Shown one piece after another: positions 13,043-37,776 of a stretch of 49,960 bases of DNA; position 1 is the first letter of the stretch; every line of letters starts with the position of its first letter. Origin of the DNA: Hydrurus foetidus (taxonomy: Eukaryota); assembly GCA_900617105.1 (NCBI GenBank), contig UYFQ01000229.1, positions 62,001 to 111,960 of the forward strand, in the 5' to 3' direction. The notes under the pieces were generated by a model. That model had not been told where the DNA came from and did no database searches. It saw nothing but the letters and a program-made list of their open reading frames with translations. Position numbers and translations under genes: made by a program.

Positions 13043-13159
13043 CAGGCCATGCTGGTATACAGTGGTACATGCAGCACCGTAGGCAGCGACGGCTGCACGA
13101 TAGAACAATCGAAATTGCTGGCGAAGTTGATCCATGAGAGTCACCGGGAACGAGGCCAT
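13043..13159 (-). pseudogene. gag: Copia A gag N-terminus
   Basis: MASFPVTLMDQLRQQFRLFYRAAVAAYGAACTTVYQHGL aligns with B gag MVTFPVTILEIPRQQFRLFNRAAVAAYGAACTTIHQHGL. Confidence 0.9.
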
Positions 13160-13171
13160 GATGACAGAAAC

Positions 13172-13182
13172 TTAAATCCAAC
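13172..13182 (-). promoter_or_regulatory. Self-complementary primer-binding site of Copia A (GTTGGATTTAA)
   Basis: Abuts the 5' LTR; exact reverse complement of the LTR 11-mer at 13245-13255. Confidence 0.75.
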
Positions 13183-13477
13183 TGTTGATGCCGCTGGTTT
13201 GAATGCTGCACCAAATGTGAAACGAATGAACGTGTTTCACGAGTGTTGGATTTAAATTATGCGAGATGAGAGTCAATGCGCATGACTAACTGTTGGTGCG
13301 ATTGAGAGTGTTTGGAAATGATAGTTGCGTACGATGTGGATTGTATGTACGACATGCATGGTATGTATGTACGACATGCTTGGTATGTACGCTGCGTACG
13401 GTGTGTGTTACATGTGCTGTACGTGCGCCATGGTATGTACGGTGTGTGTTACACGTGTTGTACGTGCGCTATCAACA
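13183..13477 (-). repeat. 5' LTR of Copia A
   Basis: Direct repeat of 3376-3670. Confidence 0.93.
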
Positions 13478-13681
13478 TATTGTGCCGGTCATATCTATAC
13501 GACGACTTTTTTGGGGGAACCTTTTTTTTGCGGAACAATCCACAGATTTTCGATTTTTTTAACGATTTTTATTTCAAAACCGTGAAAATAATTTTCTTTT
13601 TGCCTCAAAATCCGGTTTTGAGGACTGTTGCGCAAAAAAATCGTTTTTATTTGCAGCTCCGTCGTATTGACCGGCACAATA
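13478..13681. mobile_element. MITE of the same TIR family as 3008-3171
   Basis: TATTGTGCCGGTCA ... TGACCGGCACAATA. Confidence 0.75.
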
Positions 13682-13933
13682 CTAGAGTGGGGTGTTGATT
13701 AATGTCCGATACTGCATCAAATAAATCTAATGCAGCAGCAAATATATATGCTGCAGCAGACAATTAGATGCTACTTCCATATATACATACATCGTACGCA
13801 GTTATCATTTACAAACACTGTCATTTGAATCAACAGCTAGCCATCGACTTCTCGCATAATTTAATTCCAACACTCGTGAAATACGACCTTCGTTTCACTT
13901 CTGTTGTCCCATCAAATCAGTTGCGTCATCGTC

Positions 13934-15012
13934 ATGGTCACATTTCCAGTAACGATACTGGAAATTCCGCGACAACAATTCAGATTATTTAACCGTGCCG
14001 CCGTTGCAGCGTATGGGGCGGCATGCACAACGATCCACCAGCACGGGCTACTTGGCTACATCGTCAACGATACCCAATGGGGACTTCTCCCCGGAAACAA
14101 CATCATTGACCCCGATCCCGAAGTTGCCGATGTCATTCTTCCTCGCCCAACAGTCGTTATTCCGCTCACACCAGCTCCGACAGCAGGTGCTCTCACTATC
14201 AAAGTTTGGGAAAGGAAACTTGCTGACAATATCGCAGTTACTGACAATCTCAGAACGCTTAAAGCCCAACTCATCGCGAGTATACAGCCTGCTGACTTAG
14301 TCACTCTACATGACCCATTCTTTGGCCTACTTAACGTGTCCGCACTGGCTATCATGGCGCATGTGACCGCTTTACACGGCACACTCGATCGCAACGACTT
14401 CGCACATCTACGTGGCCAACTCTCAACCTCCATGACCCACAACGAGTCGTTACAAGATTTCGTCGCCACAGATCAACTTTTACATGCCCAATTCGCGGAA
14501 TCCCAAGAACCTTTATCTGAACTAGATAAATGTCATCAATTTCGTGAAGCAGTGACACAAGCTCACATTCAACACAAGCTCACATTCAACATGCCATCGA
14601 CACGTATCTCGTCGCTCACCCATTGGTCGGCGAGCAAATATTTCTCGCCCTTACTACCCATGTTGTCGAACAAGCTCCCAACTTCGCACCTACTATTGCT
14701 TCGATGGGTTATGCGGCCAACAGTATGTCAGTCACGCACGACCACTTGCCATCCGATCCCTCACTCACAATACTTTCATCACCAGCGTTCTCGGCTCTCC
14801 TTACAGCTGCAGTTAAGGCTGCTCATCCTCCCGCCCGCAAAAAACGCGCCGCTGTCCGCTCTTCTCCTACCCGACCGTATTGCTTCTATCACGGCTATGA
14901 TGGGCATTCCAGTGCGGATTGCCGTCACATGCTGGCGCACGCTTTCCCCGCTGATCAACGTGCCGCGGTAACACATACAGTCTTGCCAGGCGCGTCCACT
15001 AACCGCCTCTGA
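13934..15012 (+). pseudogene. gag: Copia B gag
   Basis: ATG 13934; 17-bp tandem duplication ACAAGCTCACATTCAAC (~14557-14590) shifts the frame; YCFYHG..GH.SADC knuckle; TGA 15010-15012. Confidence 0.85.
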
Positions 15013-18000
15013 CACGTACGAACGGATAGTTCGGTAGATTGTACTGTTGCCGCACAATGTAACTTAACACAATCATCACCAACATCCGTTCCATTCCCTT
15101 TCTGTGCCGATACCGGTTCCACACACACTTTAAGTCGAGAATCTGACGCTCCATACATAGATCAATCAGCTGATTCATTAAATGTGTTGCTTCCCAACGG
15201 GCACACTATGCAATCCATTGGCATATGTCATATTCAACTTCCACACGTGCAGCATCGTCTTGTGGCCCACATATTTTCCGATACAACAACACCTCTCTCC
15301 TGTCTATTGCACAGCTGTGCCATATGAGCTGTACAGCTCTTTTCACATCCACCGCGGTTACTATACTCTACAATCAGCTCACAGTGCTCTCCGCCGTCAA
15401 AACACCTACCACTCACTTTTGGTCGATAAGCTTCCCAGAAGAGTTCTTACGATATGATCCACCCACTGCCAATGCTGTTACCGCATTATCAACCGATGCC
15501 GCCTTCGTTCAGTTCACCCATGCTGCCCTAGGCAGCCCATCTATATCGACGCTTAGTGCCGCTGTCCGCCGCGGATATCTGCACACATATCCCCGCCTCA
15601 CTACCGCGATCTTAGCTGCTCACAAACCGCATACGATGGCAACAGCACAAGGACATCTCGATCAACATCGACAAGGTCAACACTCCACCAACGTCCCCAT
15701 CCGCACGTTCGATGTTGATGGCTCGCTCGACGACAACGTTCAGGATCCGCCCGAAAATGATGTACTCACCCCACCCAACGCATACACTCAGGTCGTTCTT
15801 GCTTCACAAACATTGCACTCAGACCTCACAGGACGATTTCCTGTCACATCGCGAAATGGTGCACAATACTTGTTTGTATCCGTTCTCGACGGTTATATTC
15901 ATACAGAAACCATGAAAACCCGACACCATACAGAGTATGTTGCTGCTTACAAACGCACACTGAATTTCTTTGCGCGCTTTGGACGGTGCCCTGCATTCCA
16001 ACGCCTTGACAACGAAACTTCAGCGCCCTTAGAAGCGTTCGCCCTGGCTAACAACATTACCATACAATATTGTCCGCCTCACACACACCGCTCGCTCAAA
16101 GCGGAACGTGCAATCCGCACACTGAAAAATCATCTTGTCGCCACACTGTGCACTGCAGACCCCGACTGCCCCCTCAATTTATGGGACGAAATGCTACCGC
16201 AAGCAGAACTATGTCTTAACCACCTCATTCCGTACTCTCCTAATGTAACCGTTTCAGCATACGCTGGTATGCATGGAGGCGCCTTCGACTTTGCCGCACA
16301 TCCGATCGCTCCTATAGGAACCCGAGTATTAATTCACGATAAACCAGCTGTACGAGCCTCATGGGCTCCGCATGGTGTTCCGGGTTATTACTTAGGCCCC
16401 GCACTTCAACACTATCGCGCATAATATCGTGTTTGGTCCACGTCAACCAACACAACGCGTGTCACGGACACCGTTGCGTGATTCCCGTATAAACTCACGG
16501 TTCCCGGACCGTCCGCCCATGACACTCTTACGAGCACCATACACAATCTTCGTATAGCTCTTCGTGACTTCGCTGCCACCACTCAAGCACTACGGCACAT
16601 GGCACAGCCAGTCTCTACACTAATAGACAACGTCACAGCTAACCTACACACAGTCGCCAATATGCATCTACCACCGTCACCCGCCGTACCCCAACCACCT
16701 CTCCTCCACATTCCTGCCGTAGAACAGAGGGTGGTCACTGAAGCATCTGACACACGTACCGGTCTCGAACAGAGACATCCTGTCAACCCACTCGTCCCCG
16801 ACGCAGGGAGAGACACTCTAATCGGCCCTAACATCCTTCTGCACGCCCCACAAAGACCATCCATCCCAGTTCCTCCGCACATTACCACGTCATCTTTTCA
16901 GCCCGCGTCCGCTAACACAGCGCTTAATCTCGATGACCGCGGTCAACCGCTCACCTATGCGTCAGCAAAATCAGGCACAAACGCACCACATTGGCAGCAT
17001 GCTGAGTCTGAAGAACTTGACCGTCTCCTAGCAACCCACACTATTCGTCCTCTTCAATACAGCGACCAACCACTTCACCGTCGGCAAGACACAACGTACT
17101 ACAGCCCACAGACAAAAGAAAAAGGAACTCCCGACGGACAGCGCACGTATCGCATTCGTGGCACTATAGGAGGAGACAGAGTTAACTACCCTGGACCCAC
17201 AACAGCGCGCACTGCTGCAATGTCGCTTGTCAAAATTCTCATACATTCAGTCATCTCAGACAACGCCCAATGGCTTACCATTGACATCAAGGATTTTTAC
17301 CTCAACACTCCCCTGCCACGGCCAGAATATCTTCGAATTCAGTCCAAGTTCCTACCTACCGACATCATAGTGAAGCACAATCTCACTCCGTATCTACGCA
17401 ACGACTCCATTCTCTTTGAAGTGAATAAAGGCATGTATGGCTTACCCCAAGCTGGACTCCTTGCCCAACAACGCCTTATCACGCGTCTCGCTAAACATGG
17501 TTATCACCAAACTAACACAGCCTGCTTATTCCGACACGGCTCCAACGGCACTGTATTTTCCTTCGTAGTCGACGACTTCGGTGTCAAATACACCACCAAG
17601 CAAGGAGCACAGCATCTCATTACCACGCTACAGACCCTTTATCCCATCACCATCGACTGGACCGGCGCTAAATATCTCGGTTTCAGCATTCAGTTTGATA
17701 GATCACAGCGCACTGTCACGCTCGCTATGCCAGGGTACATTGCCAAGACCCTTCAACGCTTTGCTCCTACACTCACCAGCGGCGCCAATTCACCAGCCAT
17801 ATACATTCCCCCCAACTATGAAGTCGGACAACAGACACCACACGTAGACACCAGCGACCCCTTGTCCGACTCTGAAACCAGCACGCTGCAAGAACTTGTT
17901 GGATCTCTTCTATACTATGCACGAGGCGTCGATGTCACGATCCTGCCTGCCGTCACTCATTTGGCTTCACTACAAACACGTCCAACACAACACGTACTTC

Positions 18001-18623
18001 AAGCTTCCCAACGCTTGCTTGCATACTGTGCCAGATATCCAAATAATGCCCTGCGTTATCACGCGTGCGACATGACATTGCACATTCAATCAGATGCATC
18101 CTATCTCTCTCGTCCCAATGCCCGATCTGTCGCTGGAGCCATTTCTATCTTTTCAACCGCTCACATTAATGGGTCTATTCATGTACTCAGCACAATTATT
18201 CCTTCCGTTGTCTCATCGGTCGCTGAAGCTGAATACGCCGCCCTCTTTATCGCCGGTCAGGAAGCAGTATCGCTCCGGAACACTTTGCATTCATTAGGAT
18301 ACTCACAAGGACAAACCGTCATTCTTTGTGATAACAAGTGCGCAGAAGACATTGCATTGGATACTATCAAACCCAAACGTACCAAGAGCATAGACATGCG
18401 GTACCACTGGATTAGAGACCGCATCCAACAGCAGCACTTCATTGTCGCTTGGCGCAAGGGCGTCGACAATCTTGCCGACTTCTTCACCAAACCTCTCCCT
18501 GTTCACGTTCATCAATCTCTTATGCCTCTCCTAGTACACACACCACCAGCTTCTCTCTCGGCCCGCAACTCCTCGTCAGCAGCCCGGGCAGCTAAATGGT
18601 CTGCCCAATTGCACAAGAAATAA
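15013..18623 (+). pseudogene. pol: Copia B pol (PR-IN-RT-RNase H), disrupted
   Basis: ADTGST protease; HSDLTG / RLDNE / AERAI integrase; GMYGLPQAG and VVDD RT; SDAS, EAE, CDN, ADFFTKP RNase H; frameshift ~15280, stops at 16422 and ~16479. Confidence 0.92.
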
Positions 18624-20529
18624 CCTCATTTGGCAAAACGCACATGCCCTGCCGACCGCCTTGTGTACATGCTTCGCCCAAGACCCGCTAAGGGCGTCCC
18701 GTTCCGACTTCACACTACACAGCGGCGGTACGGGGCATTCACCTTCCGGCCGACAACTCCTACTACCCTGCGGCCGAATCCCCTCTTACGTGTTGGAGGT
18801 TTCGAACCACGGGCCTCTCAGTTACAACTGGATCATATTAATCAGCTGCGTCAGTACGCGCTGGGAAAAAGATGACATTACAACTACCTGTTCCCACATT
18901 CACATGTTTGAGAGGGTGTGTTGATTAACGTTCGATACTGCATCAAATAAATCTAATGCAGCAGCAAATATATATGCTGCAGCAGACAATTAGATGCTAC
19001 TTCCATATATACATACATCGTACGCAGTTATCATTTACAAACACTGTCATTTGAATCAACAGCTAGCCATCGACTTCTCGCATAATTTAATTCCAACACT
19101 CGTGAAATACGACCTTCGTTTCACTCCTGTTGTCCCATCAAATCAGTTGCATCAACATGGGGAACCCTTTATTTCTTAAACTCCAATTAAGAACGCTTTT
19201 TTTCCGAAAGTTTTACGGAAATGACTCTAAAGCCGTGAAATAAAATATCGTTTAAAGGGTGAATATAGGACCCCTGAGAAGTACGAAATCGATATCCGGA
19301 ATGTGGAAAACGTCTCACACGGAATTTTTAAATACGGAAATGGCATAGTTGGGATCTGACATTTTTCAAAACTTCAATGGAACATCACAATCGACATGAG
19401 GCATTCTCTGCAGATCACACCAGATGCAGCAGCTGACCAATAAATTCCGCTGCTGTGGCTTTTCTCCAACTCTGGTTTGCAGGGGGCATTTTGCCCCCCT
19501 CCATGTTCGCTTTCTCCTCGAAAAACTTTTGAACAACTTTCTGAACAACTTTTGGTGCAATCGGCACTGTTTATTTCATAGCAGTATTCTCTTTCGCTGA
19601 GGCCATCATGATCAAAAAAGGATTCATATTCTTGGATACGGGGGAGGACAATTTTGCAACGCAGACAGATACTGATCTTTAAAACGTCAGAAAGTTGTCG
19701 GGACACGTTTGCAAATGTCGCAAAGTTGCAGCAGACAACGTTTCCTTTCCATCCTACGGGGACCGATTGAACTATCTTACGGTTAACCGGTTAGCTTTGC
19801 TTTAACGGTATCTTTTTAGCCGTCCACGACCAGATTCGGCTAGTTGCAGAATCCGTTTCACGAAAATTGGGCTAAAATCGTACATTGACTTCAATTAAGA
19901 AATGATTATTCTGACACATTTAGACCCCCTAAAACGCAGCAAAACATTTAGACAACGCAGCAAAAATTAGATAGCCTACAATATTCTAGAGTATCAGACG
20001 AGTACAGAAATGTACTCAGAAGTACCATCCGGTTGATAGTCCGTTTATTAGAATTAATCTTGGAGAGCAGTTCTTAATTAGGTCCCCCGGCGTTTAATAC
20101 GCCGGATAATCCAACCGGATACTCCATTTTGGTGGACTTCCACCTTCCACCGTGTGTACTGTGTGTCGGAATAACTTTGTGATAAGTAACCGTATAAGTT
20201 ATTACGTATGTACATTTAATGACGTTTCGTACGTCGTGTGCCACGTGGAGGTCGCTACTCCACCGATCCAAGTTCTTTTTCCACATCCAGGAACATTAAA
20301 AATGAAAGTACACCATGTTTGACTGTGCGGGACAGATCGAATTTCTCGACTGTCTCCATGAACGATGTAAGCTACGTTGCATTGTTAATTACCTTAAACA
20401 TCACACCAAACCCACTTTCGCCTTGAGCCCGGGAAAGTGATCAGAAGCCAGGTTGAAGTTGCAGAAGGAGAGCGGACCCAGGAAGGATTTAGTTGCCCAT
20501 TCAGTGGAACTAAAGCGTGGACTCCAACA

Positions 20530-20540
20530 TAATTAACAAT
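20530..20540 (+). promoter_or_regulatory. Self-complementary primer-binding site of Copia D (TAATTAACAAT)
   Basis: Abuts the 5' LTR; exact reverse complement of ATTGTTAATTA at 20381-20391. Confidence 0.8.
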
Positions 20541-20554
20541 TGCACTTTCATCCT

Positions 20555-21666
20555 ATGAAAGGAAAAGTTGCAGACAAGAAACCTTCTGGCAAGGGCGGCC
20601 CTGCCAACGGCGGCAGAGGCAATGCTGGCCGTGGAGGCTTCAAGCCTCTACCCCGAACAGGACCGGTAGCGGCCATAGGCGCGTTCCTGGATTTGGGGAA
20701 GGAAATGAACCATGGTAGCGTAAGCGCATGGATGAGAAAATTTAGAGAGTATACGCGGATCAAGTATAAATCAGACATTTGTGACATATTTGGAAACGAA
20801 GGCATACCGGGAGAATATCCCGTCCAAGTGGCTCCTGCCGATATAGCGGAGGACGCGAACTTCATGCAAATTGCAAGATGGAAGAAAACACTGGACCTCT
20901 ACGACAAGAAAATGATCGAACTAGAGACCGACAAGAAGCAGGTTTTCGGCCTGATGCTAGGTCAGATAAGCGGGACGTCTAAGGCGACTATCCGCGAAAC
21001 TGAACCGGGCCTGGCCGCGATCACAGCGGAGAACCCGCTATTATTCATGAGAGCCATCATACTCACCCACCTGTCCGACCCGAAGCTGGGAGCAGATGAG
21101 AACTTACTACGGGTAAGGATGGCCTATGAGACCGTAAGAATGGAGCCCAACGATGTCCTCAAGTACTACTACCAGCGCTTCAAAGCCCTGAAGACTGGAT
21201 ACGATGACACCAAACGGGTCCTAGGGATCGAGCCGGTGTATACACCGGCCATGACCATACACGAGAACCTTCTCACGGGTATGAAGTTCATGAAGGGACT
21301 CAACTCGGGGTATAAACAGTTCGTAGAATACTACGAGCATGGGATCAAGGACTGGCCAGATTTGCTAGATGAAGCGTACTTAGAGATGGCTAAGGTGACT
21401 CCCAGAAAACCGGCCGGAACGGGCCCACCTAACCAATCTAATATCTTTGCAGTGAAAACAGCTGGAGGAGAAAAAACAGTAGGTAGAGAGAAGGGAAGTC
21501 AACTGGGGATGCGGGAAAAGGGAAGGGTGCACGTCCGGGATACGGCACCCGACCCGGGATTTGTAATTCATGTAAGGAACCGGAACACTATGCATATGAG
21601 TGCACTGCCCAGGTGAGCCAATCGGCTGCATCAGCAGCCAGTGGACACTCGAAATCGGTAAACTAA
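20555..21666 (+). pseudogene. gag: Copia D gag (one frameshift ~21500)
   Basis: ATG 20555; RGG-rich N-terminus; CNSCKEPEHYAYEC knuckle in the shifted frame; homologous to E gag. Confidence 0.85.
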
Positions 21667-24600
21667 ACGCATTACATTATTCCTCACCCACACACGCACC
21701 CCCACACACACACACACCCGTACATGCACTTACCTCCACCGGTCCACGTTTGGCTGACTCCACTAGCGGGGTTAAATCGTGCGACCGTATTGTATTTAGT
21801 GCAAACACTTGTAATATATACAACGCAATTAAAACAAAACACATACTGCTTGATACTTGTGCTGGTGAGTCGGTATTCAACGACTCATCCCTGTTATACA
21901 ATGTAAAATCTGCCACCACTCCCATGATTGTTAGCGGGGTGAATCCGAAAGGAAAACCGCATTGCCGAATCAGCGTTCGGCAATGTATATTATAGCCCTG
22001 ACTGTACTGGTAACATACTGTCTTTCGGTAATGCTGTACGTGACTGTACTGATGTTATGTACTTACATGACCATGACTGTTACATAGTACAGGATGTCAC
22101 TGGTAACTATTTCTACAGATTCTCGCGAGATGAATCTATGAATATATACCAGTGCAACCTCGACACTATGGTGACTAAATGCATGCCACTATTAGTTACA
22201 ACCGTAGAAGAGAAAAAGAAGAAGTATACAGTTAGAGAGGTCAGAGACGCTCCGCTAGCTAGAGACTATCAGCGTAAGCTAGGTTACGCTAGCGCAGCAC
22301 AAACTATCAAGTTGATATCCCAAGGGAATTTGACTAACAGTAAAGTGACTGCGCGAGACGTACACCGAGCAGTAGACATATGGGGACCAGACATTGGATC
22401 CCTAAAGGGTAAAACTACTAGCCACCAAGCTAAGCTAGAAGAGAAGTTACCTCTTATAGGCACAGAGTATAAGACAGAACAGATCATGTACATTGATATA
22501 ATGTTTGTCAACCAAATACCTTACCTAGTATCAGTTGTACAGCCTATTGAATTCCTGTTTGTTAGCAAGCTAGCCAAGAGAGATCACAAGACACTATGGA
22601 ACAGTCTAAAGACAGCCATAGCAGGCATGACTAAGTATCACTTTAAGATTAAGATGATAAGAGTAGACGGTGAAGGCGCCATAAACACCGAATGGTTCCA
22701 CAACAAAGTCAGTCTCAGAGGTATCATTCTAGATGTTACCGGAGCCGGGGAAGCCGTAGCCGTAGTGGAGCGTAAGATTAGACATATCAAAGAGAGAGTC
22801 AGATCAATTATTAACACGCTGCCATTTGAATTAAGCGAGAAAATTGAAGTATGGTTAGTTAAGTACGCAGTCAGTAGAATTGTATTAGCCCCCACACGTA
22901 ACTCTATAGATCACATCAGCCCACGAGAGAAACTTAGTGGTAGAAAGATTGATGTAGACAAAGAGATTAAGCATGGCTTTGGTGATTATGTTCAAGTGCA
23001 TAATGATGTTATTGATAACTTCACCAAACCAAGAACAGCCGGGGCCATAGCACTTATGAGCTCCGGCAATCTAGAAGGTTCATGGTACTACATGTTGTTA
23101 GCAAATGAACAGATTGTTAAACGTACAAAAGCAACTGTACTACCCATGCCTCACGAAGTTGTGTTGTATTTAAATAACCTAGCAGCGAATAGAAAAACTG
23201 CCAATGTAAAACAACCTGTATTCGAGAATAGTCACACTGTATTCAATGATAATGATGATGTTGACGATGACCCTGAATATATTGGTGACATTGAATACGA
23301 CATCATAGATGAATCTGCTGATGCAGAAGAAACTGATGAAGTAGTTACCGAAGACAACCAATACTATAACAACGATACATACCCAGAATCACAACTGGAT
23401 ATGTATGATGAAAATCAGCCACCGACGTTAGACGAGTATGTAGATGACACACTATATATGAATGACACAACTAACGCCAATGACGAACTATATTACGATG
23501 AACACACACATGATGATTCGAATCAATACGAAACACATGAGCGTTCACCAAAATATGATCAAGTATTAATTGACGATATATTTGGTATCAGCGATGATGA
23601 AAATGACTTTGATGATGTAATACAACCTGAAGCATTAACACCACCTGATGTAATACAGACAGAATATAACTCACCTGTACTACGTAGAAGTGGTAGAAAC
23701 CACCAACCAGGCAAATGGAATAAGAAATACGTTGGTAGCATGTTTTATAATAATACACACTTGTATAAAATGACTGTTACTGAAGGTATTAATAAGTTAG
23801 GGGTGCTAGCTGTCGACTCCATTACATCCGAACTAAAACAAATGTGCGACAAGGATGTATGGGAAGGCGTAACTTATGAATCACTTACCCCTAAACAAAA
23901 ACGCACCATCATACCGAGTAGTATGTTTCTAAAAGAAAAGTACACGGCTGATGGTATGTTTGAAAAACTTAAATCTAGACTAGTAGCCGGTGGGCACTTA
24001 CAAGATAGAGATGTGTATAACAACGGCGCGTCTCCGACTGCTAGCACATCCAGCGTATTTATACTAACTGCGATTGCTGGTAAACAGAACCGTGCCATTG
24101 CCACTGTTGATTTCCCCGGTGCATTCCTGAATAGCGATATGCCGCTGACCGGTGACCATGTTGTATACATGCGATTAAATAAACAACTGACTGCTGCACT
24201 AATACAAATAGATGCAACATATAACAAATACATAAATAAGAATGGAACATGTATCGTGAAACTAAAGAAAGCTTTATATGGATGTGTAGAATCTGCTAAG
24301 AGATGGTATGACAAACTATCCAGCGATTTGAATAAACTCAATTATACTGCAAACGAATACGACATCTGCGTATTCAATAGAACCGAAACTGATAACACAC
24401 AAACCTCATTAGTAATTCATGTTGACGACATAATTATTACTGCTTCAACTGAATCCTGCGTGGATGAGGTTATAAAGCAGATTGAAACTATATACCCCGG
24501 TCTAACCAAACACCGCGGCAAAGTTTTAAATTACATAGGTATGACCTTCGACTTCAATAACGAAGGAGTAGTCAAGATGACGATGGAAGGGTTTGTAAAA

Positions 24601-25491
24601 GATCTCATTGAGGGGTGCACCGACATGCCGGGCACGGCTACCACTCCTGCACGGCCCAATCTGTTTGCTATACCTGATGAATCTAACCCATTATTACCTG
24701 ATGACTTGCGTGAGCGTTTCCACTCCATTACAGCTAAGCTACTGTACCTGAGTAAGAGGACTAGGCCGGACATTCTCACGGCCGTAGCATTCCTCACCAA
24801 GCGGGTGCTGAAGCCCCAAAGGGATGACTACGACAAGCTATCCCGTACGATCCAGTACATACGGGGTACCCAGCACATGGGTATTACATTTGAAGTACAT
24901 GAACCTATCCATGTTACTGCATATATCGACGCATCCTTTGCCATACACCCCGACATGAAAAGCCATACAGGTAGCGTGGTCACATTGGGGAAGGGGGCAA
25001 TTTATGCCAAGAGCGGGACACAGCGCCTGATGACCAAGTCCAGCACAGAGGCCGAGCTAGTCGCACTCAGCGACGCCGCCAACCAAGTGCTATGGACCAG
25101 GAACTTCCTGGAGAGCCAAGGACACCCACAGCCTCCCGCACTAGTGTACCAGGACAACCAGTCCACGATACAGTTAATTCGTAACGGTCGTTCTAATAGT
25201 GAACGTACACGTCACGTCGACATACGGTATTTTTTCCTGCACGACAGGATTACCACAGGCGATATCGACATTGTCTACTTACCTACTACTGACATGATCG
25301 CAGATATCCTAACCAAGCCATTGCAGGGGGAGCTATTTAGGAAGCTGAGGAAGCAGCTACTCAACATCCCCCCCCTCTCCATTACCTATGCAGAAGGCTG
25401 CAAGACCGAGGATCACGTGGACCCACCACCTACTCCCACGCGGCAAAAGACCAACCCACACTTCCAATATCCATCTGGGAAGAAGACTTGA
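21660..25491 (+). pseudogene. pol: Copia D pol (frameshift/deletion ~21965; 1144-aa IN-RT-RH ORF intact)
   Basis: LLDTCAGES protease; YIDIMF / RVDGE / VERKI integrase; KSRLVAGG, KALYGC, HVDD RT; YIDAS, EAE, QDN, ADILTKP RNase H. Confidence 0.93.
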
Positions 25492-25770: not shown

Positions 25771-26859
25771 GAAAACCCTGACAGAGACACGACGAGCGAG
25801 GAGCGCGGACAAGACCCAAGAGAGAAGTGCGGAGTGCAGCGATTTACCCAGTTAGGAAATTGCCTTAATTGCATTCTTATGTGTGTTACATAATTCTACT
25901 CTCATGAGGATCAGTCAGACCTTATGATACTTACATTACCCTGTGTGTAATAAATTATCTAACGTCACAACTAACACCAACCTCACCATTACCCTACTTC
26001 CCTACCCTACAAAATCATGCTATGATACACCACCTGTGCAACTCCATGTAAACGGAGTATTTTTGAACTACTGCGTTTTCACATCCACATACACCAACCC
26101 GACGACTCACGCCATAGGGGTGTGTCGGAATAACTGTGTGATAAGTAACCGTATAAGTTATTACGTATGTACATTTAATGACGTTTCGTACGTCGTGTGC
26201 CACGTGGAGGTCGCTACTCCACCGATCCAAGTTCTTTTTCCACATCCAGGAACATTAAAAATGAAAGTACACCATGTTTGACTGTGCGGGACAGATCGAA
26301 TTTCTCGACTGTCTCCATGAACGATGTAAGCTACGTTGCATTGTTAATTACCTTAAACATCACACCAAACCCACTTTCGACTTGAGCCCGGGAAAGTGAT
26401 CAGAAGCCAGGTTGAAGTTGCAGAAGGAGAGCGGACCCAGGAAGGATTTAGTTGCCCATTCAGTGGAACTAAAGCGTGGACTCCGACACTGTGTGTACTG
26501 TGTACATAACACATACCGTAAACGTAATATGTCGTGAGAATTTATCAAATAATTATTGGGATCATTCTCAGCCAGGTCCGGTTAATTAATTAATTCTCAG
26601 GAAGATTCTCACCACCCTATACTTTTAATTAATTACATTTTAGGAAGATGCAGAGATGCAAAATCCTTGTTTCGCTGTCACGTGACCTTACAGCTGTAAC
26701 TGCTTCCAACAGGATTTTTTTTGCTGACGCACTTTTAATAAATGAGAAATACATGAAATCATGAGAATTCTTCATCGATTAGGATCAGCGCATAATTAAG
26801 TTGTCAAGCGAATTACACGAATCAAATTTGAAGAAGATATCCATGAAGACGTTAACGGT

Positions 26860-27050
26860 GATACCAGTGGTGTTGATGATGCTTATGGTGATGATGACGA
26901 TGATGCTAATGATGATGATTCTGATGGTGCTAGTGCTGATGATGTGCCACTGCATTGGGCTCTCTAGGTCGGCGTCTCTCCAGACTACAATGATGATGCT
27001 AATGATGATGGTGATTATGGTGCTAATAATGGTGACGATGATTTTAATGC
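26860..27050 (+). repeat. (GAT/GGT)n low-complexity tract
   Basis: Runs of GATGATGA. Confidence 0.7.
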
Positions 27051-27096
27051 AGATTCGCTTGAGTGATCAAAAATATTTTTTTCGAAATTATGAAAT

Positions 27097-27310
27097 AGAG
27101 TGTTTGCGATTTCGGGTTTTTTTCAAAAATGACTCTCAAAGTCGTCTTCTTCAAAGTCGTTTTTTACAGAAAAAAACAAAAAACGACTTCGTCGGTCAAG
27201 AGGGCCGAACTCGTTTTCTGTGGTGCCTTTTCATTTTTTGGGAAAAACGTCTTTGAAGAAGACGACTTTGAAAGGCATTTCTGAAAAAAATCCGAAATCG
27301 CAAACAATCT
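27097..27310. mobile_element. Tourist/Harbinger-like MITE
   Basis: ~65-bp imperfect TIRs AGAGTGTTTGCGATTTCGG... / ...CCGAAATCGCAAACAATCT; 3-bp TSD AAT. Confidence 0.8.
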
Positions 27311-27949
27311 AATCAAGAACAACTTAATCAAAATATTGGAGGTCTTATAATCGCTTAATGGGGGCATAATTAATCTGTTCTTCGAAACATACTCATAATC
27401 TTTATCATAATCTGAATAGCCTCTCGATATCTGACAGCCAAGAAGGATAAAAATGTAGCCAGGTCATGAGTACGCGACGTCATGACTAGAATGACATATC
27501 AAGCGTCCAAAATTTACTGCGAATCGCACGGCGGCACTGATAGAGGCTCCTTCTACCTGATTCCAATTGCTGAGACAACCAACAAAATCTTGAAGCGACA
27601 GCACCCGGATGGACAGTGATGTTAGGAAATTCCTTATTCTACTGTTGATTACTATACGTTGCTGGCAATAGGCTGTAGATTGGACAACCGATCACATACA
27701 CCGTAACATTGAAAACCATCTATTTGAATTTGCACCTTATGCGCACGCCTAGTGCACTTAAAATGTACATACTTTGGTATGCAGTCGTCAAAAAAACAAC
27801 GCTATATAGTGGTTATTGCATTAGCCTATCGCTTTGCTACTGGAGAGGTCGCGGGATCGAACTTTATGTAACTCTGAGTTTGAGTTTAGGTGGTTCAACG
27901 TCCAGAATTATTCTCAGCACTTTTTTTTCTCACTTAATTAATTCCTGTA

Positions 27950-28441
27950 CCGTCGAGTGCCATATGTTTTGTTTTGAAAAAAAAGATTTCGGCAAATCGC
28001 CTTTTTTCGCTGTGAAAATCACTGTTTTTTTGGGACAAATTACCGAAATTCTTGCAAATTTCACTGATTTCCGATAAAAAATGTTTCACGGAAAAAGCTA
28101 TCTCAATCAGGAAGCAATTTCATGCTTATCTGCTGTCATATTCGAATTCTCCGTAGTTTTTGTAGTCGAACGCCTCCTTCAGATGTTTTTTGAAGCTCCT
28201 GCAGATTGAGAAATTTGACGCCGGCGGTACCATGACTGAAACTTTCACTGCGATTTACACCATGATGCGCTTCACGGAGACCTAATGACTTCATATATCG
28301 AAAGGCTCGGAATTACCTCAGCTTTCTCAATTTTGAACCAAACACCACTTTGAAATGCAGTTGGCTCCGTAACTGCCAAAAATAGGGTCAAAATGGTGAT
28401 TTTGGTGGAAAACGGAAAACAAAACATATGGCACTCGACGG
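27950..28441. mobile_element. Tc1/mariner-type MITE upstream of the S15 gene
   Basis: 26-bp perfect TIR CCGTCGAGTGCCATATGTTTTGTTTT with TA on both sides. Confidence 0.85.
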
Positions 28442-28678
28442 TAGTTCTCTCTCATCACGAATTTTCAGTAATTAATTCGTATTCCAAAAAATTCTCACGA
28501 AAACCATTCTCACGACATATTACGTTTACGGTAGCACAGCATGAGCTTTCATCAACACTGATCAGCATCATAATCCTTCTCCTAACACTTCACACCATAC
28601 CACAGGCCACAGATCTCTGTCGTGACAGGCGGTCACATCAACAGCAGCGCTTCGTAATTATCATTTTCACCAAGTGTT

Positions 28679-29996: not shown

Positions 29997-32900
29997 TCAT
30001 TCAAAAGTTGTAGAAACGATCTTCACCATGGCTGTGGGGGCGGCCTCAGTGGGCTTTCTGTTGTGCTGCATGTGGGACCGCACAAGGTGATTCGCAGCTA
30101 GGGCGGCCATCAGAGAGAGCTCTCCTGCTAGCACAGCGGATCCTACAATCTGAGCGAGCTTGCGCGAGTTGTCGCCTGAAGTGCGTTGGAATGATGAAGT
30201 AGATGATGAGCAGGCGGTCATGGCAGCGCACACGGAGATTGTTGTGGGATTGGAATTGATGTTAGCAGAACATGATGAGTGTTATTAAGGTGTGAGAAGA
30301 GGGGCAGCTGCTTACCTGCCATAGCTCCTGGAGCTTTGGATGCACCCCTTACGCCGCAGATGTCGAGGCATCCGGCTTGAGCGGGGAGGTGCGTGCCTCC
30401 TCCCACGGTGCCCACTTCAATGGAAGGCATGGTGACGCTCACGTGCAGACTCTTGCCGTCCTGTGAGAGCGAAGAAAAGAAGGAGAGGAGAGGAGGGGGA
30501 ATATTCAATGAGAAAGAACGTCATTGCCGCGATTTATTTCATACGCGCTAGGGGTGATCTCCCTCACCTCAGCGTATTCCATGATGGTCATGCAGTTACT
30601 GCTTTCAACGTTCTGTGCGGGGTCTTGACCAGTGGCGAGGAACACGGCTGTCACGATGTTTGCGGCATGTGCGTTAAATCCACCGATAGATCCTGTACGA
30701 GTTTAATAATATTTGTAATGAGCGGCGACAAGAAAGGATACATTTGTCGTGGTCAATTCTGTTCAATAGGACGATTTATACAAGTGCGTCCATATCAGTT
30801 TTGAGACGCATTTGACTGACCTGCCATGGCTGAGCCGATGTGATTCTTTTGTTTGTTGGTCTCGATCATGTCATACACGCTGCTCTTCAGTACGTTCTTC
30901 ACGATCTTATCCGGTATCACGGCCTCCACCACAATGCTCTTCCCACGGCCCAAAATCCTACAGAATTCATGAAAAAATTCTATGAGTTTTGGGACTCCGC
31001 GGATTGGTTCGTGTTTGAAGGTGATGTTATCTCATTGGGTGAGAAGGAGAAAAAGAAGGAGAAAAAGTGGAAGAAAAGGAAAAGATGAAGAAAAAAAGAA
31101 TAAGTAAAGAAGGAGGTCGCACCAGTTGATTGCGGAGGGTTTCTTGTCCGTGCACATGTTGCCGCTGATCGCCACGAGCACGAGATCAGGGAATTCAAGT
31201 TCCAAGATCTCTATCGCTTTCAAACAGCCTTTGCTGACCTGTCACAGAATATGTGGATTAAAATATTGAACGCACAGGTATATTAAGCATAACACTGTAC
31301 AGTACTACACTGCATTGATTCGATCTATGTTCTCTACAATGTTGTTTTCAATCCACGCACCATATTCATTCCCATGGCATCGCCAGACATGCAGCAGAAT
31401 CGAAGGTACACATTCCTTCCCGCTATGGTGGCGTCAACGCTGTTGAGACGGCCGTAGTTCGTTGTGGAGTTGAAAGCTTCCTGCAAAGTGTAGAGAGAAG
31501 GAGGAGACGATCAATCAGAAGGGGAAATAATGGTTCTGTCATATACATATACACTTGGCAATTCGCAAGTATCATGTGCTATTATACACTCAGGTGTCGT
31601 GCTGAAGAGTCAACTTACCTCGACTTTCAAGTAGTTCTCAGGACTCTCCACCCATCTCTTCACAGCAGCTGCACGCATAGCGGAGGGCAGTCTGAGGCAA
31701 GGGGCACGGGTGATAGCGTCTTTCAAAAGTACAGAGTGGCAGCCACCAGCAGCGGATCTGAGAAGGAGTATGGGATAGTGGGGATTAGATGGATATCCAG
31801 TGCAACTTGACCTCACATGTTACATATGAAAAGCAGGGGAAGGACTCATAAAAGTGAAAAGTTGACTTACATAGCTTTGCATCCTCTGTTCGTTGATGCC
31901 ACAAGGCAGCCCTCAGTAGTCGCCATGGGAATGTAGACGGGCTGTGGTGCGTATGAGATAGGGAGTTATATTTGAGATGGAATTAGAGCTGTGAGAGTAA
32001 TTACAAATACGTAATTCTTCAGAGGCTGTCAAGCGGAACATTTGAGGTCTGATCAGTAAGTCTTAATATCTATGTGCGATTGACGCTGCTTGCTTGGGGA
32101 ATTTACTACCTCTCCATTGATCGTGAGGGGACCAACAACTCCTACGGGGATGGGCACATATCCGATCACTATCTCGCAGTTCGCTCCAAATACCTGCCGT
32201 ATCCATATCGTAGCAATCATGAGGATTAAGAAAAGGTCTTTGTCCAATTTGCAGTGGAGTTGATGCGATTTGAAACTCTCGCCCAGACCCATACACACCT
32301 TGTTGTAGTCGTATCCTGCGTAAGGAATGAGGTCAAGCTTCTTGTCTAGTAAATGCTCATAAAGTCTTCGTCTCAGACTCACTGCTCTTTCGTAATCGCC
32401 GAGCCTTTTCTCCAACTGGTAATCTTTCAAGGAACCATTGATAAGAAATTCAAATACCTCGTCGTCATTCAGTTCAGCGAAAGCGATCTCGTCGATGTCT
32501 CCGGTCTCCACCTGCGGCTGCTCGGCGCTTAATTTGCAAGCGGCATCGATGGTGGCTGGAGCTCTCTCGACACATATCGCCGTATCGTTGCGTGGAGTGT
32601 GGGAAGCAACTTTTGGTGCAGCGGCCACAGTTACGGCTTTCTGAACTTTCTTCGGCTTCTGAAGGGCTTTCTCTTCTTCGGCATTTCTTGCTGCATCTGC
32701 ATGGCGTTGGAGGTCCGATAAGCCGAAAGTTGACGGTGATTCCGAGATTGCCTCTGTGTCTAAGAATGATATGCCGAAAAAACCAAAGAAATATGCGAGG
32801 CACATTGTCCAAAGCACCATCACGGGAAAGAACATGCTCGTCAGGGGGCTAGCACTTTCGTTTTGTTGATTGATTGTTATGTTCCGTCGATAGTTAAACA

Positions 32901-33119
32901 CCACGTAGGTGATGCTGCCGATGAAAAGCGTCAGAACAACATAGTTTAGCGCTCGCAGCACTCCCCATTTCGGCTGAGGATTCTGGTAAAGTGGTAAAGG
33001 TCCGAAAGTGTCAGGATGAGACTATCTTGTATAATTGCACGACAGAAATTTTCGCCGCGCAATATCTAAACATCTTGAGAGTGCTGATTTACCGAAAGAG
33101 ATTTTCCATTGGTATGCAT
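29997..33119 (-). CDS. HMGR: Class I HMG-CoA reductase, multi-exon (possible extra last exon 29798-29939)
   Basis: [61 protein letters not shown] and GELSLMAAL motifs across GT-AG exons; two N-terminal hydrophobic segments; start exon 33093-33119 tentative. Confidence 0.95.
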
Positions 33120-34543
33120 GATTTCGGAAGTCGACAACGTCCAAATATTCCCCGATGCCCTATGCCCTAAGTTAATTGAAATCAAGTCCGATCAAGTTGA
33201 TCGAGACTGAAAGATGCGGAATTCGCTTCTTCTAGCGGCGACTTCTTATTCCCACTAGCCACTGCTTCGAAGCCTCTCCTATTAAACCTTCCTTGATTCG
33301 ATCGACCTATTACTTGTTGGTCACTTCTACGGCACTCCGTACACACAGCGAACGGCGAATTTTGAATGAATTTGTTTTCACATCCCGATCGATCTACTTC
33401 ACAGAAATTCGTTCCCCTTCAAGCGGTGACGCTGATTCGCTGATTTTTCAAATTTGGAGACCTGGGACCCCGATTTGGGTTTTTCCCTCTTTCGTCCGAG
33501 TCGATTGGTTCCAATCAGTTGAAAAGTCAGCCCCACAAATATTCCCTCGCCTCTAATATCTTGTGCTGAACTCCAACAAATATTCCCTCGCCTCTAATGT
33601 CTTGTGCTGATAACACAGCTTCACGCGAAATTTCAAATGCCGTTTTCATCATAACATCCTCGACCAGAATACTCATTTTTGGTCGGTTTTGCAAGAAATC
33701 AAGAATCTGAAGATTTCTTTTCTTACTTCAGAACTCTCAGAGCTCGCTGATTCTTATTAGACATGCACCAACCACCATCGGAAGAGAAGTTGCATTTCTT
33801 CAGTGATGGTTTCTCCAGTAGAAATTAGAAAATTCAAAATAATGTAATCAAAAATTAAAAATGACCATATTTTGGAAAGGATTCCCCACACGACAGGTAA
33901 AAAGGACCTAACGGTTTATAGGGACAGAACCATTCGCTGGAGGCTTGTTGCTGGATCGTTTTGCTGGAAAATCGGGCTGGGCTGCCTTCTATAGCCCCTT
34001 GCTTTATCCTCAACCGGTTGGTACAACTACGGAGTTGAGTCTACAAAAACTGCTACCGTCTCCGACCCTATTATTTATTGGATTTTTGGTAAACCAAATT
34101 TTTTTTGCTCTGCAAATCACGGATATCGTTTTTAAAATTTGCCACGGATTCATTTTTATCTCCCTTAATAATCAGTTTGGAGGAAAGTTAGTTGCAGATT
34201 CGGATTCAGGGCACTTTCTTAAGTGAAATAGCATACCTTAACTTTTTTTTTCACCAACGATGAACGAAAGAATGCCATCCGAAGAGGCGAAGGACGTAAC
34301 TTTGAGCACATGCAACTCCCCCATTTCTTATCCGAGGCAGAATCTAATTGGTGGAAAAGTTGCGCACAACTACTAGCTATCGATAGAACCAATGTCCGGA
34401 GATTTTTGAATGCTATTGCTTGCAGCGTTGCAATTAAACATACTAAAACATGCTAAAAATCACCATTTTTCGAACACTGAAAGTGCCGATTATGTTACAG
34501 CCGATCAATAGCCGACCTTCCAGAATTAGACAGCTGCGTCAAG

Positions 34544-36256
34544 ATGAGCGCTCGGAGATCGATGGATATGAGAAATTCCTTCAGCTCTGTCAAGAAAAAG
34601 CGTCAGCATTTGGCAAATTTAGCTGTACAATACTATCGAGATGAAGAGAAGGAACAGATGGACAATGAAAAACGTGAGGAGCTTCGCGCTGATCTAGCTG
34701 AGCGCCGTAATGAACGCAAGAGTCAAAATCGGGCGAGGAGAATCGAAGTAGCTCGATCATCGAGAGATGAAAGATCCGATGAACAGAAAGTGCAAGATGA
34801 CATTGATTCAGTTGTTGAGGATATACCTGTCGTTCCAACAATGCCCAAGAATGGCGTCAAGAGGCATAAGAGACCACCAAATTGGGGAGATATTGCCGAT
34901 GAAGCCGAAATATGGAGAAACGATGCTGCCAAGAGAAACTTCGCATCAGACTTCAACGGAGCATCTCAAACTGCCAAGTATCAGAGATTGAATCAATTGA
35001 AGAAGGATTTGAAAGACAAGAAAATTTCATCTGCTTATCAAGGTCAACCATTGTATGGGAGTGAGATCGACTTACTTCTTCTCGCTGACTGTCATGCCAG
35101 GAGGGCTGTAGGACTCCCCATTGACGACGTGATTCTTAGGCGACTGCTTATTGTTCATCTAGCTGCAGCAGGGAAAGAAGAAGAGTTGATTGAGAACGGC
35201 GGGAAGTATCACTACGGACATTCATGGGCGATGAGATTTTACAAGAAACACAAATTGGCAAGCAGAGTTTACACTACTGAAATGAGAGAACTTCCAGGGG
35301 ATTTCGAAGCCAAAAAAGCCACGTACATAATGATCGGCGCAGAGTACAACGTGCCGCCAGAATCGGTTATCAACAGAGACGAAACAACTGTTCTCCTAGT
35401 GAATCGCGCAAAAGTGACTCGCAATACAGTGGGAGCAAAACGTGTGAGGATTTTGGGCATGGGTGAAGACAAGGCTCAGATCACGATGACTATCTTCGTC
35501 ACCGAAACTGGTGATGTCCTCCCGTATCAGATGATATTCTCAGGTACTACTACAAGGTGTCACCCTAAGTCCCTTAAACCTGCCGACTGCCTGTGGACGA
35601 ATACTGCGAGTCGCTGGCAATCTGTCGAAACGTACCTGGAAGTTCTTGCTTGGGCCATTGTTCCTTACAAGAACAATATCATCAGAGCTCTAGGACTCCC
35701 AGCCAACCAAAGAACGATCCTTAAGCACGACTTACATTTTACTCATAAGGATGCCCGTGTCTCGGCTTATTTGAAGGCAAATTTCATTTGCCCACTATAC
35801 GTGCCGGCGGAATACACGGATATCATTCAGGAGTGCGATGTAGTTGTTAATAAGCCGTTCAAGAACGCTGTTCGGGGTGCTTTCAGAGACCACTTAGATA
35901 CACTGTTTCAAACACATTTGGCAGCTGGACGCCCCCCAACAGACTTTGCCCCGAAGCCTACAATGGGTACGCTCAAGCCATACCTCACAGGTTTCGTTGA
36001 GAAGGGAGTTCTAGCGCTCAAGATGCCAGAGATGAAGGCCTGCATAAGAAAATCATTCGCGAGTGACGGTTTCTTTACTGAAATGAGATCATCCGAGATG
36101 CAACTCATGGTGCAGATGGAGGGAGGGGCGACCCTTGCAGAGGAAGATCCTGACATAGAGGGGATCGAAAATGATGAAATCATTGAAGAATTAGACGCTG
36201 ATTCTGATGTCCATGCTAATGTTGAAGTTGAGGTTGATAATGACATTAATGAATAA
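34544..36256 (+). CDS. pogo/Tigger-like DDE_1 transposase
   Basis: SWAMRFYKKH CENP-B-like HTH; NRDET, KAQIT, KHDLHFTH, IQECDVVVNKPFK catalytic region; acidic tail; TIR pair not identified. Confidence 0.85.
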   Translation: MSARRSMDMRNSFSSVKKKRQHLANLAVQYYRDEEKEQMDNEKREELRADLAERRNERKSQNRARRIEVARSSRDERSDEQKVQDDIDSVVEDIPVVPTMPKNGVKRHKRPPNWGDIADEAEIWRNDAAKRNFASDFNGASQTAKYQRLNQLKKDLKDKKISSAYQGQPLYGSEIDLLLLADCHARRAVGLPIDDVILRRLLIVHLAAAGKEEELIENGGKYHYGHSWAMRFYKKHKLASRVYTTEMRELPGDFEAKKATYIMIGAEYNVPPESVINRDETTVLLVNRAKVTRNTVGAKRVRILGMGEDKAQITMTIFVTETGDVLPYQMIFSGTTTRCHPKSLKPADCLWTNTASRWQSVETYLEVLAWAIVPYKNNIIRALGLPANQRTILKHDLHFTHKDARVSAYLKANFICPLYVPAEYTDIIQECDVVVNKPFKNAVRGAFRDHLDTLFQTHLAAGRPPTDFAPKPTMGTLKPYLTGFVEKGVLALKMPEMKACIRKSFASDGFFTEMRSSEMQLMVQMEGGATLAEEDPDIEGIENDEIIEELDADSDVHANVEVEVDNDINE

Positions 36257-36568
36257 GATATTTAACATTTTTTTAAATGATTTTTGTAATTCATACTACT
36301 AAAGAATCGACTTTTCGTAAATCATCAGTGGTGTCCGGCTCAGTCCATAATAAACGGTGGATTATGAGCCCATCCGATTATGAGCGACCCGGTCTCTACG
36401 TTATGGGTCCGTTCGGTAACTTCTGTTACTAATTCCACTGGATTCGTGAAACCAGTGGAAATGAGAAATCCACTGGATTCACTAATCCAGTGGAATGAGT
36501 TTCCGAACGCCACATCATTACTTGCTCCTCAGATGATGGATGATGAATGATGGATGTTGTGGACTGGA

Positions 36569-37238
36569 CTATTGAGCAAGCGTAGGAAGCAGCAGGTTGA
36601 CAATGGATGAAGTTGGTTTCCTAGCTGGGTTCTTCACTGGTAAAGGCTTCACAGCAGGTAACTTCTTCACGGCTGCTGGCTCATCATCGCTCGAGGAATC
36701 GATGTCGTCCGCTCTTTTACGTTTTTGGCCTGAAAGCCATTCTCCGACGAAGTCTGGCTCCGAATCGCGAGCGACAGCTACAGCTACCGGTGGAATTGGT
36801 GTGACCGCTACCGACGACTTCGCGTAGACGCCTGTTGCTGTCTTGCCACCAAAGATCTCCTCCAAACTGTCATATTCAGCTGTCATAGTCAGGCAATGCC
36901 TTATTGCGGAATTGAGCTGCAGAGGGATGGGCAGCAATCATAGCATCCCAGACAGATTTTGAAGCTATAGGTGCATCCGTCCTTGGATCGATACCGAACC
37001 CAGAGTTGTCCATGATAACGGCATAGATGGTGTATTTCTCCTTCAGACTCTTGTACTTTGATTGACACTGTTGTTTGTTATATTTTATGTCGGACGAGAG
37101 GTGAAGTCCGTCGACGATGCGCTTCCAACCATCCTTCTTGAAGCCAGAATCAACCCAGCATCCGCGACCTACTTCAGCTACCATCACTTTGATAAAAGAA
37201 CTAATACTCTCCTCGGTCCAAACGGAACGTTCTGCCAT
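36569..37238 (-). pseudogene. Harbinger Myb/SANT-like DNA-binding protein (frameshift ~36880)
   Basis: WT.E...F...GFKKDGWKRI...QCQSKYKSLKEKY...SGFGID...W, continuing as YDSLEEIFGG.TATG in a shifted frame. Confidence 0.8.
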
Positions 37239-37765
37239 GATGACAACTTTTGTTGTGATGTGCACGCCAATGTCGCGCTTTGTGTATTGCGCAGCTGAAG
37301 ACAGCGAAAATTTTCCCAAAGAGATCCCAGAAAAAGTTGGATATTCGTTCCAGTGGATTTTAGAAATTTCCACTGTCTCTTTCCGTATCGAACGCTCTGC
37401 TGGATTGGTCAATCCAGTGGATTCTAAAAAGCCAGTAAAGCCTGGGGTATGTGGGGGTAATCCAGTATAAGAGGAAGCTACCGAACTGTTGTGATATCCG
37501 GATTAGACTAGGATCTTGTACCCTATGTGATGTATGATTGTTTTCATGCACGGGTGTACGTACATTCAGCGATAACATTGACCGCAACCCTCGCACTCAT
37601 GTTATGCTACCTAGATGTAATCGACAGCATGTCACTGTCGTTTAATCCAACTTACCGAATAGAACGTCTTCTTCTCTTTTGAGCGAGCGTTGCTAGCAGT
37701 CGGAAGTGCAGGGATCGTTTGGGAACTCGGAAGAAATTCCGTGTAAATCGCCCAGATTTCCAACA

Positions 37766-37776
37766 TAAACGACAGT
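37766..37776 (+). promoter_or_regulatory. Self-complementary primer-binding site of Copia E (TAAACGACAGT)
   Basis: Abuts the 5' LTR; exact reverse complement of ACTGTCGTTTA at 37634-37644. Confidence 0.85.

What the first reader, a model, noticed from the sequence alone, without database searches (positions are those of the whole stretch)
13172..37776. Three Copia retrotransposons carry the signature of tRNA-independent, self-primed reverse transcription
Seen: none of A, D or E has a TGG-type tRNA PBS. In each, the 11 nt directly after the 5' LTR are the exact reverse complement of an 11-mer inside that same LTR. A: GTTGGATTTAA / TTAAATCCAAC. D: TAATTAACAAT / ATTGTTAATTA. E: TAAACGACAGT / ACTGTCGTTTA. 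The three sequences differ, yet position and Watson-Crick length are conserved. The rough chance per element is ~300/4^11, about 1e-4 (somewhat higher for AT-rich words). Known: S. pombe Tf1 (Gypsy, Tf1/sushi group) primes with the first 11 nt of its own transcript, which anneal to the PBS and are released by RNase H. B, D and E have Copia domain order (PR-IN-RT-RH), and A is homologous to B. Inference: two divergent Copia lineages (A/B type and D/E type) use Tf1-like self-priming, possibly by convergence. Element C in the same window has a normal TGGTAGCG PBS and acts as an internal control. I cannot exclude that this was already proposed for some Copia families.
Basis: partly seen in the sequence, partly recalled or inferred. 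Interest (0 to 1): 0.93.

Follow-up and report, generated by a model that had tools for sequence, protein, structure and literature searches.

The report
Self-priming in two deep Copia lineages
Three jumping genes here, and dozens of distant relatives from aquatic DNA, have no tRNA-type primer site; instead the bases right after the first terminal repeat match a short word inside that repeat, so they likely start copying themselves with the front end of their own RNA, a trick shown in fission yeast and already predicted for one plant Copia group.

Summary
Observation confirmed. In A, D and E the 11 nt after the 5' LTR are the exact reverse complement of a word in that LTR.

Relatives carry the argument. 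D/E type: 32 of 37 testable loci keep a 9-33 nt exact match (shuffles 1.4%, swaps 9 of 600), with 22 different 9-mers among 25 families. A/B type: 7 of 9 (shuffles 7 of 1800). The D/E word starts at an initiator-like TCA (21 of 25 within 1 nt; decoys 30%), indirect support that it is the RNA's 5' end. Tf1-like self-priming is likely (0.85) but unshown: no transcript starts, no host tRNAs.

Corrections: length is not fixed at 11; A is a shell with nested inserts; B has lost its primer site; C is a fragment and a weak control; a crude test found no Tf1 'pretzel'.

Not categorically new: self-priming was already predicted for plant TAR Copia (PMC6317226). I found no paper on it for such divergent non-plant lineages. 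This scan noted the same signature before in other, mostly diatom, genomes.

The parts
13183..13477 (-). Element A, 5' LTR (TG...CA)
   Evidence: TSD CAATA on both sides
13245..13255 (-). A: predicted self-primer core; initiator-like C|A 5 nt upstream (A at 13260)
13172..13182 (-). A: PBS, exact complement of the LTR word, 14 bp with one G-U
13043..13159 (-). A: start of gag, homologous to B gag, then interrupted
10008..13042 (-). Insert nested in A with two ORFs (512 and 204 aa); no Pfam match; Gypsy-like gag/protease only by recalled motif; ends approximate
5185..10007 (-). Fragment C nested in A: putative LTR, TGGTAGCG at 9424-9417, gag with weak CCCH finger, protease-like ORF; no RT, no second LTR; ends approximate
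3990..4270 (-). A: RNase H C-terminal tail homologous to B
3376..3670 (-). Element A, 3' LTR, preceded by purine tract
13693..13924 (+). Element B, 5' LTR; last 7 nt, PBS and part of the leader are deleted in this copy
   Evidence: TSD TGGGG
13861..13871 (+). B: LTR word homologous to A's with one change (TTAATTCCAAC); predicts a matching change in the PBS of intact B copies (untested)
13880..18623 (+). B gag-pol in Copia order, frames broken; RT and RNase H acidic motifs present; RVT_2 only 25.9 bits (below cut-off)
18918..19157 (+). Element B, 3' LTR
20164..20529 (+). Element D, 5' LTR
   Evidence: TSD CTGTG
20381..20391 (+). D: predicted self-primer, begins at C|A
20530..20540 (+). D: PBS, exact complement
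20555..25491 (+). D gag and pol (IN-RT-RH order; RVT_2 76 bits)
26123..26488 (+). Element D, 3' LTR
37487..37765 (+). Element E, 5' LTR
   Evidence: TSD CGAAC
37634..37644 (+). E: predicted self-primer, begins at TC|A
37766..37776 (+). E: PBS, exact complement
37821..42735 (+). E gag (CCHC knuckle, one internal stop) and pol (IN-RT-RH order; RVT_2 80 bits)
43245..43523 (+). Element E, 3' LTR

Best explanation
A, D and E are Copia-type LTR retrotransposons whose primer site is complementary to a word in their own LTR, and they likely prime reverse transcription with the 5' end of their own RNA instead of a tRNA. Shown: complementarity, position, polarity and its retention across divergent relatives. 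Inferred: transcription starts at the TCA initiator-like site; the RNA's first 9-33 nt (in A/B type after a short, mostly unpaired overhang) fold onto the PBS, looping out R-U5. Taken over from Tf1, untested here: the element's RNase H cuts at the 3' end of the paired stretch, and RT extends the freed 3' end across U5 and R. Also inferred: plus-strand synthesis copies the primer, rewriting the PBS from the RNA's 5' end each cycle, which would explain the pure Watson-Crick pairing and the sharp edge.
For: D/E type: 32 of 37 loci with at least 400 nt before gag have 9 or more exact nt; dinucleotide shuffles reach 9 in 56 of 3900. 25 of 29 clusters at 80% integrase identity are positive (D and E included); median integrase identity among them 34%; PBS of one family against the LTR of another reaches 9 in 9 of 600; 22 distinct first-9 words; none starts TGG. 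Paired changes in close relatives, e.g. L055/L056 and L006/L007. L016 fixes the LTR end independently: its repeat stops at CA and the PBS follows. A/B type: 7 of 9 at 9-13 nt, shuffles 7 of 1800, swaps 0 of 72. The 5' edge of the D/E word is C|A in 12 of 25 exactly and 21 of 25 within 1 nt, against 15 and 32 of 105 chance inverted repeats (P 6e-5 and 5e-8); T precedes the CA in 16 of 21, like the diatom TCAH(+1)W motif in PMC4686930. Pairing falls to background on both sides (0.23 and 0.25). The duplex has mean pair probability above 0.5 in 25 of 25 predicted folds. RNase H acidic motifs are present in B, D and E.
Against: No transcript start, cDNA or cleavage was observed; the RNA runs laid were contigs only. 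Host tRNAs could not be searched: no genome is held and the window has no tRNA gene. The two flanking duplexes that Tf1 needs were not detected in 26 elements by a crude duplex test (mean z 0.05 and 0.24). Five of 37 D/E loci and 2 of 9 A/B loci miss the threshold. A single-pick blind rule for the LTR end scored only 25 of 45. Gag starts used were partly set by eye. The search demanded exact pairs, so the lack of G-U is partly built in. Many PBSs start TAA, a bias not explained. Some duplexes are weak (down to -4.4 kcal/mol).
Confidence: 0.85

Rival explanations
1. The primer is the element's own 5' end, but it is not released by RNase H cleavage in cis. Short capped transcripts, a host nuclease product or the partner RNA in the particle supply it.
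For: Primer length varies 9-33 nt and no Tf1-like flanking duplexes were found.
Against: The cis duplex is strongly predicted in 25 of 25 folds; RNase H motifs are intact; Rfam finds no ribozyme or other family at gathering score in the window and 17 loci.
Confidence: 0.07
2. The pairing is structural (packaging, dimer formation or translation control) and priming uses something else.
For: No direct priming data; long-range 5' pairings occur in retroviral RNAs (recalled).
Against: The match starts at the first base after the LTR end, has priming polarity, ends at an initiator-like site and there is no TGG site.
Confidence: 0.05
3. The PBSs bind host tRNA halves or fragments, and the LTR match is secondary.
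For: Half-tRNA priming is common in Copia (PMC6317226); many PBSs begin TAA; host tRNAs were not testable.
Against: 22 different 9-mers in 25 families, each matching its own LTR and rarely another's; single-base changes are mirrored in the LTR.
Confidence: 0.02
4. Chance or assembly artefact.
For: AT-rich words; relatives are collapsed metagenome contigs.
Against: Shuffle, swap, sense and reversed controls; two-LTR elements with TSDs in the window.
Confidence: 0.01

Closest known systems
Tf1/Tf2 of Schizosaccharomyces pombe and the Tf1/sushi group (Ty3/gypsy chromoviruses)
   Same: [quoted passage not shown]
   Different: These elements have Copia domain order; paired length 9-33 nt; the three-duplex 'pretzel' (PMC10085805) was not detected; nothing here is shown by experiment.
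TAR lineage of plant Ty1/copia (Houba, Osr-1)
   Same: Copia with predicted self-priming in 89% of 203 elements, by the same criterion of at least 10 bp LTR complementarity (PMC6317226).
   Different: TAR is a plant lineage. These RTs fit the Copia Pfam model poorly (26-80 bits) and integrase and gag miss the Pfam Copia models, which points to distant lineages; not tested by tree.
CoDi-like Copia of diatoms (CoDiI, CoDiII; PMC2806351, PMC2774666)
   Same: Divergent Copia lineages from aquatic protists; motif likeness of B and of D/E to diatom elements is recalled, not tested.
   Different: No reference sequences were available. The passages found in those two papers say nothing on primer binding sites.
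Fungal GalEa Copia with conserved hairpin site (PMC5445492)
   Same: Copia lacking a tRNA PBS.
   Different: There the site is a conserved palindrome with no complement in the LTR; here it is variable and complementary to the LTR.

Membership tests
Ty1/copia superfamily | Two LTRs (TG...CA), 5-bp TSD, purine tract | tested here: met
   A, B (5' LTR end deleted), D, E
Ty1/copia superfamily | Integrase before RT-RNase H; RVT_2-type RT | tested here: met
   D and E above the Pfam cut-off, B below it (E 9e-6); integrase placed by motif and homology, no Pfam hit; A has only gag start and RNase H tail
Self-primed LTR retrotransposons (mechanism class) | PBS complementary to own LTR, no tRNA-type TGG site, kept across relatives | tested here: met
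Self-primed LTR retrotransposons (mechanism class) | The complementary word is the 5' end of the transcript | tested here: inconclusive
   indirect only: initiator-like CA at the edge; no reads showing starts
Self-primed LTR retrotransposons (mechanism class) | RNase H cleavage releases the primer | not testable with these tools
   acidic motifs present; needs biochemistry
Tf1/sushi group | Ty3/gypsy domain order and RT type | tested here: not met
   Copia order and RVT_2
Tf1/sushi group | Three-duplex 'pretzel' structure | tested here: not met
   0 of 26 elements with z below -2 for either flanking duplex; crude test, not calibrated on Tf1
TAR lineage | Placement in the TAR clade by RT-RH-INT phylogeny | not testable with these tools
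   no reference sequences; the paper's sequence files were too large to read; weak Pfam scores argue against
CoDiI / CoDiII | Placement by RT phylogeny with diatom CoDi elements | not testable with these tools
   no named references among homologues; likeness is recalled

The most novel reading that the evidence does not exclude
Self-priming is clade-wide and old in two deep Copia branches that share only ~24% RT-RNase H identity, works without the Tf1 pretzel and with primers of 9-33 nt, and is inherited from a common ancestor. Self-priming, not tRNA priming, would then be an early state of Copia, as speculated for LTR elements in PMC3601003.
Probability: 0.15. Interest if true: 0.8.

Novelty: new variant of a known kind. 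Interest (0 to 1): 0.55.

Why it matters
It would move self-priming from a fission-yeast and plant-TAR speciality to a common strategy of Copia elements in aquatic eukaryotes, with at least two more deep lineages. Such elements would escape control through tRNA supply or tRNA fragments, and annotation pipelines that demand a tRNA PBS would miss or misjudge them. The rule 'PBS complement ends at the transcript start' would also predict LTR promoters from sequence alone. The range of primer lengths gives a natural series for asking how a Copia RNase H could cut an RNA duplex.

Tried and rejected
Whole-genome survey and host tRNA test: no genome held, no tRNA gene in the window.

Viral contigs: five scans, no relative. 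Genome contigs with the single B protein: none; the alignment found 16.

Reads on E: four runs, all contigs, so no start sites. No variant in the PBS or LTR word was among the 40 rows shown, but 232 rows were hidden, so this says nothing. Intact copies of B were not examined.

A single-pick rule for the LTR end often chose a wrong AACA in AT-rich leaders: 25 of 45 positive, 7 of the misses being contigs with under 200 nt upstream. It was replaced by a best-of-candidates statistic with a matching null.

Dropped before the 32-of-37 count: 28 of 76 loci (27 with too little DNA upstream, L019 with no gag start) and 11 loci with under 400 nt before gag (3 of these positive). Of the 5 misses, L021, L026 and L068 show 9-13 nt matches by eye at a non-standard LTR end, L067 has a 10-nt match behind a long leader, L069 shows no LTR. 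A/B type: 7 of 16 loci lacked the LTR-gag junction; L081 (12 of 13 paired) and L084 (8 nt plus a bulge, by eye) miss the threshold.

Pretzel duplexes: not found. Ribozymes: none in Rfam. PDB search with E RT-RH: nothing useful. Cluster look-up: no lineage names. Tree: no outgroup, so no statement on convergence. Earlier-findings look-ups by sequence: nothing; by place: one unrelated note.
Full report
Anatomy. Self-comparison of the window gives four LTR pairs with 5-bp target duplications: A on the minus strand, and B, D and E on the plus strand. D and E are near-complete Copia elements with integrase before RT-RNase H (RVT_2 76 and 80 bits), and their RT-RH regions are 66% identical. B has the same order with a weaker RT match. 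A is a shell: the first gag codons and the RNase H tail match B, and about 9 kb of other elements lie between, including fragment C. The host is not identified. Runs that hold E are mostly freshwater, biofilm, sediment and glacier metagenomes; a protist host is my inference.

Observation. In A, D and E the 11 nt after the terminal CA are the exact reverse complement of a word 73, 149 and 132 nt upstream in the same LTR; chance is 1e-4 to 3e-4 each. B carries A's word with one change but has lost the LTR end and PBS in this copy. C has TGGTAGCG after a CA and no self-complement beyond 5 nt, but it lacks RT and a second LTR, so it is a weak control.

D/E-type relatives. An integrase alignment fetched 76 metagenome loci at 28-52% identity, many of them whole elements collapsed into circles with one LTR. 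48 had a gag start with DNA upstream and 37 of these had at least 400 nt. Taking the best of all CAACA-like ends within 160 nt of the gag start, 32 of 37 have 9 or more exactly complementary bases in their own LTR; the same statistic on dinucleotide shuffles reaches 9 in 56 of 3900 trials. Gag starts were partly set by eye after a first look, and a single-pick blind rule gave 25 of 45. After clustering at 80% integrase identity, with D and E added, 25 of 29 clusters are positive. Lengths run 9-33 nt, median 14; there are 22 distinct first-9 words, none starting TGG; a PBS set against another family's LTR reaches 9 in 9 of 600 swaps. Close relatives show mirrored single changes. In L016 the repeat ends at the CA and the PBS follows, which fixes the boundary without using the match.

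A/B-type relatives. An RT-RH alignment found 16 loci in prokaryote genome bins, most likely eukaryotic contamination. Nine have the LTR-gag junction; 7 of 9 match 9-13 nt, three of them after an end reading CAATA rather than CAACA. Shuffles reach 9 in 7 of 1800 and swaps in 0 of 72. B's RT-RH is 24-25% identical to D and E, and a tree of 33 rows puts the nine A/B rows on one side of a long branch (100/100); it has no outgroup.

Where the word begins. In D/E type its 5' edge is C|A in 12 of 25 families and within 1 nt in 21 of 25, against 5.5% and 16% from base make-up and 15 and 32 of 105 chance inverted repeats in the same loci. The context is mostly TCA(C/T)(T/A), like the initiator-like TCAH(+1)W proposed for a diatom (PMC4686930, passages). 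In A/B type the CA lies 3-6 nt before the paired core in the seven positives and L081, and 5 nt before it in A (background 34%), so A's RNA probably starts upstream of the 11-mer. Pairing drops to background on both sides of the duplex, and only 2 of 25 runs continue with a G-U. That fits a PBS rewritten from the primer each cycle, though the search itself demanded exact pairs.

Mechanism. The best reading is Tf1-like self-priming (0.85). Complementarity, polarity and covariation are shown; the transcript start is inferred; RNase H release is borrowed from Tf1 (PMC7175516, passages; PMC5341516, passages). The cis duplex is predicted in 25 of 25 folds. The two flanking duplexes of the Tf1 pretzel (PMC10085805, passages) were not seen in 26 elements by a crude test, and Rfam finds nothing in the window and 17 of the 92 loci. 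Against the reading: no RNA ends, no cDNA, no host tRNA set, and a few weak duplexes.

Prior knowledge. PMC6317226 (passages and Additional file 5; files 1 and 3 too large to read) predicts self-priming for TAR Copia and cites earlier proposals for Houba and Osr-1; I did not read those primary papers or the Levin papers. PMC5445492 (passages) describes fungal GalEa without a PBS and without an LTR complement. PMC2806351, PMC2774666 and PMC7082073 (term searches and passages) give nothing on primer sites of diatom or oomycete Copia; their supplements were not read. PMC3601003 (passages) speculates that hairpin priming preceded tRNA priming. Eight searches of the held library listed no paper on self-priming in non-plant Copia. 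Subscription journals, Repbase and GyDB pages are outside that library. The names CoDi-like and Gypsy-like for these sequences are recalled and untested.

Earlier notes of this scan. 31 notes in at least 6 genomes hold the same search words, and 7 of the 8 shown report this signature for Copia elements, mostly of diatoms. They are unchecked AI notes, read after my analysis, and are not counted as support. One prompted the ribozyme check.

Verdict. Real feature, likely self-priming, in two divergent Copia lineages. The mechanism is known and was already predicted for one Copia lineage; the lineages, the variable primer length, the initiator evidence and the apparent lack of a pretzel are what this adds. 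New variant of a known kind; interest 0.55.

Noticed in passing
window 13478-13692 and 2997-3181: A and B sit head to head 215 bp apart, each next to a copy of the same short motif, which recurs in a palindromic stretch near 3004-3031. Possibly both inserted into the termini of a small DNA element.
   Followed up: no
L077, L080, L085 (A/B type), L026 (D/E type): The LTR appears to end in CAATA rather than CAACA directly before the PBS: a TG...TA end or a short spacer.
   Followed up: partly
window 3671-3680, 18909-18917, 26114-26122, 43236-43244 and many loci: Both lineages share the same short purine tract style, ending GGGTG or GGAGTG before TGTT, despite 24% RT-RH identity.
   Followed up: no
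window 44575-45113 and 49250-49788: 539-bp direct repeat, 99.8% identical, without TG...CA ends, around a 322-aa ORF (46788-47756) with no Pfam match; a SWIM/MULE-like motif is recalled.
   Followed up: no
window 26514-28533: Two nested pairs of perfect 28-bp inverted repeats and a long palindrome (27096-27311) beside D's 3' LTR: likely MITE-type elements.
   Followed up: no
window 32053-33021 (-), 34481-36256 (+), 36876-37502 (-): HMG-CoA reductase fragment, DDE_1 transposase and Myb/SANT protein; E's 5' LTR overlaps the start of the Myb/SANT frame.
   Followed up: no
window 9424-9417 (-): C's site shares its first 7 nt with the GalEa tRNA-Met PBS quoted in PMC5445492.
   Followed up: no
L031: 33-nt perfect PBS-LTR complement, far longer than in any other family.
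   Followed up: no
L077-L092: Copia-type elements lie in 15 or so prokaryote genome bins, one in a 162-kb contig (L087); probably eukaryotic contamination.
   Followed up: no
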